A DNA stretch of 64,000 bases from Escherichia coli (GTDB taxonomy: Bacteria; Pseudomonadota; Gammaproteobacteria; Enterobacterales; Enterobacteriaceae), in NCBI RefSeq assembly GCF_001677475.2, contig NZ_CP015229.1; one strand, given 5' to 3'. The position numbers were made by a program, and so were the translations under genes. The notes beneath the pieces were generated by a model. That model was not told where the DNA came from and did not search any database. It worked only from the letters and a program-made list of their open reading frames with translations. How positions within the stretch are numbered: position 1 is the first letter of the stretch; each line of letters begins with the position of its first letter. This document shows, piece after piece, positions 490-1,218 of the stretch.

Positions 490-516
490 ATCATCGCATC
501 TGGCTAATACGATGAT
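490..516. other. Inverted repeat / hairpin downstream of immunity gene 1 (atcatcg-N13-cgatgat)
   Basis: 7-bp stem with loop catctggctaata; homologous to the hairpin at 1184-1218. No clear U-tract follows, so intrinsic-terminator function is uncertain. Confidence 0.4.
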
Positions 517-572
517 ATTAATGACATAAAATAATAATGTGATTGCTCTTAAAAAACAGGTAGAAATACTGA

Positions 573-865
573 AGCCTCATTAGGTTATTTTATCATTTTC
601 CCGCTTTTACCGATACCCTTTGGCTGGAGGTGAGTCAGGATCCGGAGTTGATAGCGCAGTTTTCAAGCGGTAATCAAACACGTATAAAACAAGGATGAAT
701 CGCAAAAGCACCACTTGAAGGTTGGCATTATGGCACTAAAGAAATCGTTAAAAAATTCCACATGTATCATCGTGTTGCGATTGAATATAGTGGCGGAATT
801 TACGATATTGATAATTTAAGGAGGGCACACCTCATTTGCATGATGAAATTTATTACAGGAGATAG
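573..865 (+). pseudogene. Decayed copy of the HNH DNase toxin domain (orphan toxin C-terminal remnant)
   Basis: Translation ..FYHFPAFTDTLWLEVSQDPELIAQFSSGNQTRIKQG*IAKAPLEGWHYGTKEIVKKFHMYHRVAIEYSGGIYDIDNLRR, then after a -1 shift TPHLHDEIYYRR*, aligns with colicin E7/E9 DNase (..FWEEVSKDPELSKQFS..VGKAP..HH..VYDMDNI..TPKRHIDIH). It has an in-frame TGA at 696-698, HH changed to YH, a frameshift near 820-830 and no start codon. Nucleotides 692-865 are clearly homologous to 1-175. Confidence 0.75.
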
Positions 866-869
866 TTAA

Positions 870-1160
870 ATGTATAATTTTAAAGATAAAATAGAAGATT
901 ACACAGAGCGGGAATTCATTGAGTTGCTTGGCGAGTTTACAAATCCAACCGGGGATAACGCTCAATTAAAAGGGGAAGAGCTTGACAAATATTGGGATGA
1001 TCTAGAAGAACATCTTACCAGAATTACACAACATCCGTTGATGAGCGATCTTATCTACTATCCTGCAAAGAAGGGAGATGATGAACCTGAAAACATCCTG
1101 AAAATCGTCAAAGAATGGCGGCGTTCGCAAGGATTGCCTTTGTTCAAAGATTCAGAATGA
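870..1160 (+). CDS. Second DNase immunity protein, Im family, 96 aa; divergent paralog of 178..462
   Basis: Product contains DYTEREFIELLGEF and TQHPLMSDLIYYP, with a C-terminus (PENILKIVKEWRRSQGLPLFKDS) nearly identical to immunity protein 1. Intact ORF starting 5 nt after the stop of the toxin remnant. Confidence 0.85.
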   Translation: MYNFKDKIEDYTEREFIELLGEFTNPTGDNAQLKGEELDKYWDDLEEHLTRITQHPLMSDLIYYPAKKGDDEPENILKIVKEWRRSQGLPLFKDSE

Positions 1161-1183
1161 ACTCTAAACAGAATCTGTCACCT

Positions 1184-1218
1184 GAAAATCATCACGTTCT
1201 GGTTAAGTGATGATTTTC
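1184..1218. other. Perfect 12-bp stem hairpin downstream of immunity gene 2 (gaaaatcatcac-N11-gtgatgattttc)
   Basis: Perfect inverted repeat whose loop gttctggttaa resembles the loop of the 490-516 hairpin; possible terminator or module-boundary element. Confidence 0.45.

What the first reader, a model, noticed from the sequence alone, without database searches (positions are those of the whole stretch)
490..1218. Homologous hairpin repeated after each immunity gene (module punctuation)
About 30 nt downstream of each immunity stop there is an inverted repeat with related sequence (atcatcg-catctggctaata-cgatgat at 490-516; gaaaatcatcac-gttctggttaa-gtgatgattttc at 1184-1218). Conservation of stem and loop motif (tctgg.taa) implies the element was copied together with the toxin-immunity module. 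It could be a terminator or RNA-stability element, or a recombination or protein-binding site that delimits cassettes.
Basis: seen in the sequence. Interest (0 to 1): 0.45.

Follow-up and report, generated by a model that had tools for sequence, protein, structure and literature searches.

The report
Conserved hairpin after each immunity gene
Every immunity gene in this bacterial toxin-defence island is followed by the same small hairpin, kept with compensating base changes in at least four genera; it most likely stabilises or ends the immunity message and marks where gene cassettes were joined, so it is real but probably ordinary in function.

Summary
Both inverted repeats exist at the stated coordinates. 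Hairpin B (1184-1218) is a perfect 12-bp stem. Hairpin A (487-519) is weak in this window but is a mutated copy of a 13-bp stem found in other E. coli strains.

The locus is the E. coli aroP/pdhR island. It encodes an Hcp-Pyocin_S-DNase type VI effector followed by cognate and orphan colicin-type immunity genes.

In the first 17 related loci examined (E. coli, Salmonella, Superficieibacter), 49 of 51 immunity genes carry the hairpin 20-30 nt after the stop codon. Enterobacter and metagenome loci have diverged versions. Pairing is kept (95% of cells) through double substitutions. The loop is not kept: it ranges from 5 to 21 nt and is exactly inverted in one Salmonella strain.

The 3' arm is homologous to the toxin gene's last codons. 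In compact Salmonella arrays (360-bp period) it runs directly into the ribosome-binding site of the next immunity gene, so the hairpin sits on the cassette junction.

Most copies lack a U-tract, so they are not canonical terminators. The best reading is an mRNA 3'-end protective stem-loop or leaky terminator, analogous to the colicin T1 stem-loop. A DNA-level junction palindrome without RNA function is not excluded. No experiment or transcript data were available.

The parts
1..175 (+). 3' end of the Hcp-Pyocin_S-colicin-DNase effector gene, or of an orphan copy of it. The window starts inside the gene. The last codons, ...H D E I H Y R R stop, lie at about 149-175, and the AGGAG ribosome-binding site for the next gene is at 167-171.
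   Evidence: Sequence. The region is 99% identical to E. coli ECO20, where it is the end of a 1782-bp tssD gene. Pfam domains on homologues are T6SS_HCP, Pyocin_S and Col-Pyo_DNase.
178..462 (+). Immunity gene 1 (94 aa, colicin/pyocin DNase immunity family PF01320).
   Evidence: ORF list. RefSeq annotates it as 'bacteriocin immunity protein'. PF01320 appears on all homologues.
487..519 (+). Hairpin A, a decayed copy. The arms are 487-499 and 507-519, with a perfect 7-bp core at 490-496/510-516. The loop carries CTGGCTA.
   Evidence: Intact 13-bp versions occur in other strains. This region is found in 1050 of 5426 complete E. coli genomes, with a median of 3 copies per genome, all in this island.
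509..539 (+). Inferred relic of a toxin tail, ribosome-binding site and start codon. It consists of the 3' arm of hairpin A plus taatgacataaaataataatg.
   Evidence: This is an inference and is not significant by direct alignment in E. coli. The E. coli type-A hairpin is 26/32 identical to the L154-type hairpin, whose 3' arm continues into an intact toxin tail (31/35 aligned, p<0.0005). The Superficieibacter type-A copy aligns to the tail at 18/25, p=0.006.
630..869 (+). Orphan, frameshifted 3' fragment of a second DNase toxin gene. It ends with its own tail and ribosome-binding site just before immunity gene 2.
   Evidence: Alignment of module 2 with module 1. The same stretch is annotated as a 240-bp 'pyocin-S2/colicin E7-DNase domain-containing protein' in ECO20.
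870..1160 (+). Immunity gene 2 (96 aa, orphan, PF01320).
1184..1218 (+). Hairpin B: GAAAATCATCAC / GTTCTGGTTAA / GTGATGATTTTC. The stem is a perfect 12 bp with an A-tract on the 5' side and a 4-U tract on the 3' side, both inside the stem.
   Evidence: This region is single-copy in 1058 of 5426 E. coli genomes and at least 99% identical in 1038 of them. Orthologous terminal copies occur in Salmonella.
1207..1232 (+). The 3' arm of hairpin B plus gctacgagaagg, a possible decayed toxin-tail relic.
   Evidence: TGATGATTTTCGCTAC aligns with toxin TGATGAAATTCACTAC at 13/16, p about 0.02. This is weak evidence.

Best explanation
The element is a conserved stem-loop in the sense (+) transcript at the 3' boundary of each immunity cistron of the Hcp-DNase effector/immunity island.

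**Proposed function (inferred, not shown).**
- It acts as a barrier to 3'-to-5' exonucleases, fixing and stabilising the 3' end of the upstream immunity message.
- Where it carries a short U-tract (type B and the Salmonella internal copies), it also acts as a weak, leaky intrinsic terminator.
- Expression would then fall off along the array while distal orphan immunity genes are still read through.
- This is the role shown experimentally for the T1 stem-loop that follows the immunity gene in colicin E operons.

**What is shown.**
- The stem is maintained by compensatory substitutions across genera, while the loop and flanks drift.
- The hairpin is inherited with each cassette.
- Its 3' arm is homologous to the toxin gene's last codons. 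In compact arrays the hairpin therefore abuts the ribosome-binding site of the next immunity gene and coincides with the cassette junction.
For: **Pairing is maintained.**
- 95.2% of cells are paired across 19 distinct versions. Three pairs show double changes, including an A-U / G-U / G-C series. 0 of 500 shuffles reach the covariation score, and slid controls give only 21-64% paired.
- RNAalifold recovers the same helix.

**Further lineages keep a 10-13-bp stem with different bases.**
- Enterobacter: GGACATCACT/AGTGATGTCC.
- Metagenome locus L162: GGGAACATCATCG/CGATGATGTTCCC, plus a B-type copy with G-C where E. coli has A-T.
- L154: TCATCGCATC/GATGCGATGA.

**Arms are more conserved than their surroundings.** The arms are about 90-100% conserved, against 35-95% for the 22 nt just upstream.

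**Read-through is implied.** Salmonella arrays hold up to six immunity ORFs separated only by 69-nt spacers that contain the hairpin and no toxin fragment. Almost all are intact: of the Salmonella ORFs seen, one is split by a transposase insertion and one is truncated. Distal genes must therefore be read through, which argues against strong termination.

**Most types lack a U-tract.** Types A, Enterobacter and L154 have none. In E. coli, stable U-less stem-loops are known to mark and protect the 3' ends of Rho-terminated transcripts (PMC6061677).

**Analogues in nuclease bacteriocin operons.**
- ColE and klebicin plasmids, and a Vibrio S-type pyocin plasmid, each have their own stem-loop just after the homologous immunity gene.
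- The ColE7 T1 stem-loop is described as a partial terminator, and its authors propose that it also stabilises the mRNA (PMC2896534).
Against: - No transcript 3'-end, half-life or reporter data exist for this element.
- Single-sided substitutions show no clear preference for changes that keep G-U pairing on the + strand. My hand tally is about 7 such events against about 7 that keep pairing only on the - strand. An RNA reading on the + strand is therefore not favoured over a DNA palindrome.
- The window's own copy A folds better on the - strand (-15.5 kcal/mol, z = -4.5) than on the + strand (-6.1 kcal/mol).
- There is no C-rich, G-poor Rho-loading tract directly after hairpin A (C/G = 0.9).
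- The stems are A/U-rich. Without the A/U tracts the core is only -7.5 to -8.7 kcal/mol.
- The exact loop inversion in one strain shows that DNA-level events act on the palindrome.
Confidence: 0.45

Rival explanations
1. The element is a DNA-level junction palindrome with no RNA function. It would be a by-product of how cassettes were stacked. An inverted copy of the toxin's last codons lies after each immunity gene, and the toxin tail of the next cassette supplies the other arm. Arm identity would be kept by recombination, gene conversion and quasi-palindrome template switching rather than by selection on RNA. The short homology between the 3' arm and toxin tails would mediate deletions and unequal exchange that build or compact the arrays.
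For: - The 3' arm plus downstream sequence aligns in register with the toxin 3' end: Salmonella 24/26 and L154 type 31/35, both p<0.0005.
- Orphan toxin fragments form a graded series from long to almost nothing: about 345 nt in Superficieibacter, 240 nt in E. coli, about 85 nt in Enterobacter, and 26 nt in Salmonella, where the tail is fused to the arm.
- Allele I10 is followed by different alleles, with the switch point inside the hairpin.
- An 11-nt loop is exactly inverted between the arms in S. enterica CP079837.
- There is no strand bias in G-U-compatible substitutions (my tally).
Against: - Stems differ at several pairs between lineages yet stay paired. In three lineages the tail-derived 3' side has changed to match the 5' GG(G) flank, lengthening the stem. 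That is easier to explain by selection for a hairpin than by passive inheritance.
- The arms are as conserved as the most constrained coding segments.
- Some breakpoints lie upstream of the hairpin, for example the two terminal flanks of allele I13.
- About 100 nt of conserved sequence spans each junction, so ordinary homologous recombination needs no palindrome.
Confidence: 0.27
2. The element is a recognition site for a protein. It could be a folded or duplex recombination site that captures immunity cassettes, working like an integron attC or Xer-type site. Alternatively it could be an operator for a dimeric regulator.
For: - The array architecture resembles integron cassette arrays: promoterless ORF plus imperfect inverted repeat, repeated up to six times with a 360-bp period.
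- The Salmonella copies have a 12-6-12 layout.
- Bacteroidales rAID-1 immunity arrays have integron-like intergenic repeats together with a XerD-family recombinase (bioRxiv 10.1101/471110).
Against: - No integrase, recombinase or regulator gene lies next to the island at any of the three chromosomal sites.
- The arms lack attC core sites (RYYYAAC/GTTRRRY) and do not resemble dif.
- Arm sequence itself varies by covariation and loop length ranges from 5 to 21 nt. That fits a structure better than a sequence-specific duplex site.
Confidence: 0.08
3. The element is a translational control site for the following gene, working like the CsrA-binding T1 loop of ColE7. An alternative form of the same idea is a structure that insulates or tunes the ribosome-binding site of the next immunity gene.
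For: - In the compact arrays the 3' arm ends 5 nt before the AGGAG of the next immunity gene.
- The ColE7 T1 loop together with the cel ribosome-binding site binds CsrA (PMC2896534).
- The loop and 3' arm sequence AAGTGATGAtt resembles T1 sequences AAGGATGAAT and AAGTGATGAAT.
Against: - No GGA motif, which is obligatory for CsrA, occurs in any loop version.
- In E. coli, the L007-type Superficieibacter loci and Enterobacter, the hairpin lies 100-400 nt from the next start codon.
- The similarity to T1 is not significant (p = 0.06-0.25).
Confidence: 0.07

Closest known systems
T1 stem-loop between the immunity (cei) and lysis (cel) genes of colicin E operons (ColE7; PMC2896534)
   Same: - It lies a few to about 25 nt after a homologous DNase immunity gene (PF01320).
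- It has a roughly 10-bp stem with an unusually large loop followed by only a short U run (TTTC).
- It sits just upstream of the ribosome-binding site of the next gene.
- It is described as a partial terminator, and its authors propose that it also stabilises the mRNA.
Sources.
   Different: - There is no significant sequence homology.
- The CsrA-binding GGA motif is absent from the loop.
- The next gene is another immunity gene or an orphan toxin fragment, not a lysis gene.
- The element is chromosomal, linked to type VI secretion, and repeated up to six times per locus.
U-less protective stem-loops at 3' ends of Rho-terminated E. coli transcripts (Dar and Sorek 2018, PMC6061677)
   Same: It is a stable stem-loop shortly after a stop codon with no U-rich tail (types A, Enterobacter and L154). 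In E. coli arrays it is followed by a long untranslated stretch where Rho could act.
   Different: No C-rich, G-poor tract lies directly downstream of hairpin A. No 3'-end data exist for this locus. K-12, the strain that was mapped, lacks the island.
Integron attC sites and the integron-like intergenic repeats of Bacteroidales rAID-1 immunity arrays (bioRxiv 10.1101/471110)
   Same: An imperfect inverted repeat follows each promoterless cassette ORF. The arrays consist of orphan immunity genes and the repeat marks cassette boundaries.
   Different: - No recombinase gene is adjacent.
- There are no attC core motifs or extrahelical-base architecture.
- The element is much shorter (30-52 nt).
- One arm derives from the toxin coding end.
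Orphan immunity and orphan toxin-fragment arrays (Vibrio cholerae T6SS, PMC5361080; CDI/Rhs orphan modules, from my own knowledge)
   Same: Successive acquisition leaves behind old immunity genes and 3' toxin fragments downstream of the active effector. Orphan immunity genes in E. coli Hcp-ET loci have already been noted (PMC6730261).
   Different: Those descriptions concern genes. In the papers I searched and read, I found no report of a conserved hairpin at each cassette boundary, or of an arm derived from the toxin tail.

Membership tests
Intrinsic (Rho-independent) terminator | Stable, usually G+C-rich stem with a short loop (3-8 nt) | tested here: inconclusive
   Stems are 10-13 bp but have only 4-6 G-C pairs. 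Loops are 5-21 nt. Full hairpins fold at -14 to -19 kcal/mol, but the cores without the A/U tracts fold at only -7.5 to -8.7 kcal/mol.
Intrinsic (Rho-independent) terminator | Run of U (at least 5 of 8) immediately 3' of the stem | tested here: not met
   Type A is followed by AATAAC, the Enterobacter type by TTAAAAAT, and the L154 type by AATCCAC. Type B has UUUUC, which lies inside the stem. The consensus terminator scan called neither window hairpin.
Intrinsic (Rho-independent) terminator | Transcript 3' ends map to the U-tract | not testable with these tools
   No transcript data were available. K-12 lacks the island.
ColE-type T1 stem-loop / CsrA site | Stem-loop directly downstream of a PF01320 DNase immunity gene | tested here: met
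.
ColE-type T1 stem-loop / CsrA site | Sequence homology to T1 | tested here: inconclusive
   The sequences share AAG(T)GATGAAT and TTTCAC.ACA.GGAG, but p = 0.06-0.25 against shuffles. The test has low power: ColE against klebicin itself gives p = 0.29.
ColE-type T1 stem-loop / CsrA site | GGA motif in the loop (CsrA binding site 1) | tested here: not met
   No GGA occurs in any loop version. The requirement is taken from PMC2896534.
Protective stem-loop of Rho-dependent 3' ends | Stable stem-loop without a U-rich tail just after the gene | tested here: met
   Types A, Enterobacter and L154.
Protective stem-loop of Rho-dependent 3' ends | rut-like C>G region immediately downstream | tested here: not met
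   C/G is 0.87-0.91 in the 84-124 nt after hairpin A. A C-rich, G-poor tract (C 19%, G 6%) appears only about 60-140 nt after hairpin B.
Integron attC site | Adjacent integron integrase gene | tested here: not met
   Neighbouring genes are aroP, pdhR, an MFS transporter, a type I secretion system, rsmI, Fic and PTS genes. None is a recombinase.
Integron attC site | Core sites R'' (RYYYAAC) and R' (GTTRRRY), length 57-141 nt | tested here: not met
   By reading the sequence, the arms end GTTAATA, GTTAACA or TTTTCAC. The element is 30-52 nt long.
Dispersed repeat (REP/BIME-like) | Many copies scattered over the genome | tested here: not met
   There are 1-3 copies per E. coli genome, all within this island.
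Any curated RNA family (Rfam 15) | Match to a covariance model | tested here: not met
   No hit falls at any hairpin in L002 or L009, even at E up to 5.
T6SS orphan immunity array (genomic context) | Effector followed by its cognate immunity gene and further homologous immunity genes, with or without effector 3' fragments | tested here: met

The most novel reading that the evidence does not exclude
The hairpin is the working junction signal of a recombinase-less, integron-like system. An inverted copy of the toxin's last codons, placed after every immunity gene, folds with the toxin tail of an incoming or neighbouring cassette. That fold directs where new immunity cassettes are captured, stacked, trimmed or flipped. 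This would explain the 360-bp periodic arrays, the switch points inside the hairpin and the loop inversion.
Probability: 0.1. Interest if true: 0.75.

Novelty: new member of a known kind. Interest (0 to 1): 0.4.

Why it matters
Orphan immunity arrays decide which rival toxins a strain survives, yet how their genes are expressed and assembled is poorly understood.

**Uses of the element.**
- A conserved structured element at every cassette boundary gives a concrete handle for annotating cassette limits.
- It allows tests of whether expression is graded along the array.
- It allows tests of whether junctions are recombination hot spots.

**Evolutionary link.** The 3' arm is the toxin gene's own tail. 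Together with the graded series from long toxin fragments to a bare tail, this suggests that the compact Salmonella arrays arose by progressive trimming of toxin-plus-immunity modules. That order of events is inferred, not shown.

**If ordinary.** If the function proves to be ordinary 3'-end protection, the practical value is mainly for annotation and for designing immunity-expression constructs.

Tried and rejected
1. **Peptide-pattern scan of genome contigs** with the immunity alignment found no confirmed relative. Species representatives probably lack this strain-specific island.
2. **DNA pattern scan of genome contigs** with AAAATCATCRY-N6-11-RYGATGATTTT returned at least 120 unrelated hits. 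Most look like A-tract/T-tract terminator-type hairpins in A+T-rich genomes, and some lie in coding sequence. None is near an immunity gene. The pattern is therefore not specific and says nothing about homologues.
3. **K-12 as a source of published 3'-end data.** K-12 lacks the island and both hairpins.
4. **Rfam.** No family matched.
5. **CsrA-type site.** Rejected for lack of GGA in the loops.
6. **Rho-loading tract after hairpin A.** Not seen.
7. **Promoter scan.** Only weak matches in 1-2600, fewer than in shuffles. Whether each module has its own promoter stays open.
8. **Strand-of-action test** from G-U-compatible versus C-A substitutions. My tally is about 7 against 7 events, which is uninformative.
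9. **Direct alignment of the E. coli type-A 3' flank to the toxin tail.** Not significant. The link rests on the L154-type intermediate.
10. **VgrG-linked immunity arrays** in Escherichia clades, Enterobacter roggenkampii and Salmonella do not carry this hairpin. It is specific to the Hcp-DNase lineage, not to the immunity family.
11. **MAFFT alignment of the Enterobacter 5' arm** was wrong. That lineage was compared by eye only.

Full report
**What is in the window**

Positions 1-1580 are the E. coli island between aroP and pdhR. pdhR, aceE and aceF follow from 1616. The best matches are E. coli chromosomes (99% identity). There the region is annotated as a 1782-bp tssD (Hcp) gene, two to four 'bacteriocin immunity protein' genes, and short DNase-domain fragments between them.

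Homologues of the long gene carry the Pfam domains T6SS_HCP, Pyocin_S and Col-Pyo_DNase. It therefore matches the Hcp-ET3-4 domain architecture that a review assigns to UTI89_C0121, and orphan immunity genes in such E. coli loci have been noted before (PMC6730261). K-12 lacks the island.

The parts in the window are:
- Toxin 3' end, 1-175.
- Immunity gene 1, 178-462.
- A frameshifted orphan toxin fragment, about 630-869.
- Immunity gene 2, 870-1160.

The two hairpins are the top two inverted repeats in 1-1600. Their shared pattern is far above chance in the window: 3 matches against 0.01 expected, one of them unrelated.
- Hairpin B (1184-1218) is a perfect 12-bp stem with an 11-nt loop, z = -2.6.
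- Hairpin A (487-519) is weak here: -6.1 kcal/mol, z = -0.66 on the + strand.
- In strains PSUO2 and AR_0086 the same site is a 13-bp stem at -17.7 kcal/mol. The window copy carries three G>A changes relative to that version.

**Distribution**

- In E. coli, hairpin B with its flank is single-copy in 1058 of 5426 complete genomes.
- The hairpin-A flank occurs in 1050 genomes at a median of three places.
- All places are chromosomal, and in every locus I fetched they lie in this island. It is therefore not a dispersed repeat.

Homologous immunity proteins led to the same island at several sites:

| Host | Chromosomal site | Immunity genes |
|---|---|---|
| Salmonella enterica, including subsp. 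salamae | aroP/pdhR | 1-6 |
| Superficieibacter-like genomes | aroP/pdhR | 3 |
| Superficieibacter sp. HKU1 | another site | 3 |
| Enterobacter | rsmI/PTS | 2 |

In the first 17 loci, 49 of 51 immunity genes have the hairpin 20-30 nt after the stop codon. The two exceptions are the terminal genes of Superficieibacter. VgrG-linked arrays of the same immunity family lack it.

**The stem is conserved and the loop is not**

- On 19 distinct versions, 95.2% of cells pair.
- Three pairs show changes on both sides, including A-U / G-U / G-C and A-U / C-G.
- No shuffle out of 500 reaches the covariation score. Sliding the 3' partner drops pairing to 21-64%.
- RNAalifold predicts the same helix.

Three further lineages keep a 10-13-bp stem with other bases:
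- Enterobacter: GGACATCACT/AGTGATGTCC with a 21-nt loop.
- The L154 type: TCATCGCATC/GATGCGATGA with a 5-nt loop.
- Metagenome locus L162: GGGAACATCATCG/CGATGATGTTCCC. L162 also holds a B-type copy with G-C where E. coli has A-T.

Across Salmonella cassettes the arms are about 90-100% conserved, while the 22 nt just upstream vary widely. Loops range from 5 to 21 nt. In S. enterica CP079837 the 11-nt loop is the exact reverse complement of the usual one.

**Origin of the 3' arm**

In Salmonella the immunity genes are packed at a 360-bp period with 69-nt spacers and no toxin fragments. The hairpin GAAAATCATCAC-GTTCTA-GTGATGATTTTC runs straight into ACTACAGGAGATAAnnATG. That continuation is the toxin's last codons, its stop codon, and the ribosome-binding site and start of the next immunity gene.

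Alignments of the 3' arm plus downstream sequence to the toxin 3' end:

| Hairpin type | Aligned | p |
|---|---|---|
| Salmonella internal | 24/26 | <0.0005 |
| L154 type | 31/35 | <0.0005 |
| Superficieibacter type A | 18/25 | 0.006 |
| E. coli type B | 13/16 | about 0.02 |
| E. coli type A (direct) | not significant | - |

E. coli type A is 26/32 identical to the L154-type hairpin, so its 3' arm is tail-derived by transitivity.

The orphan toxin fragment between cassettes shrinks across lineages:
- About 345 nt in Superficieibacter.
- 240 nt in E. coli.
- About 85 nt in Enterobacter.
- A bare tail fused to the arm in Salmonella.

In several lineages the tail-derived side has changed so as to pair better with the 5' side. 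Examples are GAAATTC to GATTTTC, and CAC to CCC opposite GGG.

**Cassette boundary**

In Salmonella, immunity allele I10 is followed by four different alleles. The 22 nt upstream and the 5' arm go with I10. The distal loop, the 3' arm and the tail go with the downstream allele. At least one exchange point therefore lies inside the hairpin. Other breakpoints lie upstream of it, as in allele I13 with two different terminal flanks.

**Function**

Nothing here was measured, so what follows is inference.

The hairpins are poor canonical terminators:
- No U-tract follows types A, Enterobacter or L154.
- Type B has four U's, and these lie inside the stem.
- The terminator scan called neither window hairpin.
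- Up to six almost always intact genes in series in Salmonella require read-through.

U-less stable stem-loops just after genes are what E. coli uses to protect the 3' ends of Rho-terminated transcripts (PMC6061677). In addition, the immunity gene of ColE and klebicin plasmids and of a Vibrio S-type pyocin plasmid is followed by its own stem-loop. For ColE7 that stem-loop (T1) is described as a partial terminator and a CsrA site, and its authors propose that it also stabilises the mRNA (PMC2896534).

I therefore favour an mRNA 3'-end protective and leaky-terminator role on the sense strand (confidence 0.45).

Against this reading:
- No strand bias appears among one-sided substitutions.
- The window's copy A folds better on the - strand.
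- No rut-like tract lies after hairpin A.
- There is clear DNA-level activity, namely the loop flip and junction exchanges.

The main rival is a junction palindrome maintained at the DNA level with no RNA role (0.27). A protein or recombinase site (0.08) and a translational or CsrA-type control site (0.07) are less likely. No recombinase is nearby, attC and dif motifs are absent, the loops lack GGA, and the arms covary rather than keep a fixed sequence.

**Novelty**

No Rfam family matches. The papers I searched and read describe the effector and the orphan immunity genes but not this element.

By its likely function it is a new member of a known kind: a post-cistronic protective or terminator-like stem-loop, the counterpart of colicin T1. 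Two features are unusual. One arm comes from the toxin's coding end, and the hairpin sits on the cassette junction of an immunity array.

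Noticed in passing
L015 (S. enterica CP079837.1), about 23-57 nt after the last immunity gene (gene end at locus position 6371): The 11-nt loop of the terminal hairpin is TTAACCAGAAC, the exact reverse complement of the usual GTTCTGGTTAA. The 12-bp arms are unchanged. This is a small inversion between the arms.
   Followed up: partly
L009, L013-L016 (Salmonella enterica subsp. salamae and others), between aroP and pdhR: Up to six colicin-type immunity genes lie in a strict 360-bp period (291-297-bp ORFs with 69-nt spacers) behind one Hcp-DNase gene. Gene order and alleles are shuffled between strains: 25 distinct protein alleles in 12 loci.
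   Followed up: partly
window about 2424-2537, - strand (L002 10424-10537; L009 8637-8749): A full-length match to Rfam tp2 sRNA (RF02030; 103-115 bits against a gathering score of 50) lies antisense in the pdhR-aceE intergenic region.
   Followed up: no
window 9738-9760: The near-palindrome ATCATCATCGTCATGATGATGAT lies inside the region corresponding to yacH (DUF3300). It matched the hairpin search pattern but is unrelated to the immunity hairpins.
   Followed up: no
window 1281-1360: A C-rich, G-poor tract (C 19%, G 6%) lies about 60-140 nt downstream of hairpin B and upstream of the pdhR promoter region. It could be a Rho-loading site.
   Followed up: no
L012 (S. enterica), locus 6361-7806: The second immunity gene is split by an insertion carrying a DDE_3 transposase gene (6516-7547, - strand). 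The hairpin after the distal gene half is intact.
   Followed up: no
L146/L158 (Enterobacter), about 50-90 nt after the terminal immunity gene: The strong hairpin GCCGGATGGCG...CATCCGGC resembles a REP/BIME element and takes the place of the island hairpin at the array end.
   Followed up: no
L004, L005, L144 (ColE-type and klebicin B plasmids), immunity-lysis intergenic region: The sequence after the T1 stem-loop (TTTCACAACAAGGAG) resembles the toxin tail plus ribosome-binding site of this island (TTTCACTACAGGAG). The T1 loops share AAG(T)GATGAAT with the loop and 3' arm here. This hints at a common origin but is not statistically significant.
   Followed up: partly
window 178-462 and 870-1160, and all homologues: The last 24 residues of the immunity proteins (PENILKIVKEWRRSQGLPLFKDS) and their DNA are nearly invariant among otherwise 60-67% identical genes in the E. 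coli and L002 comparison. Together with the hairpin and the conserved gene start, this gives about 100 nt of homology across each cassette junction.
   Followed up: partly
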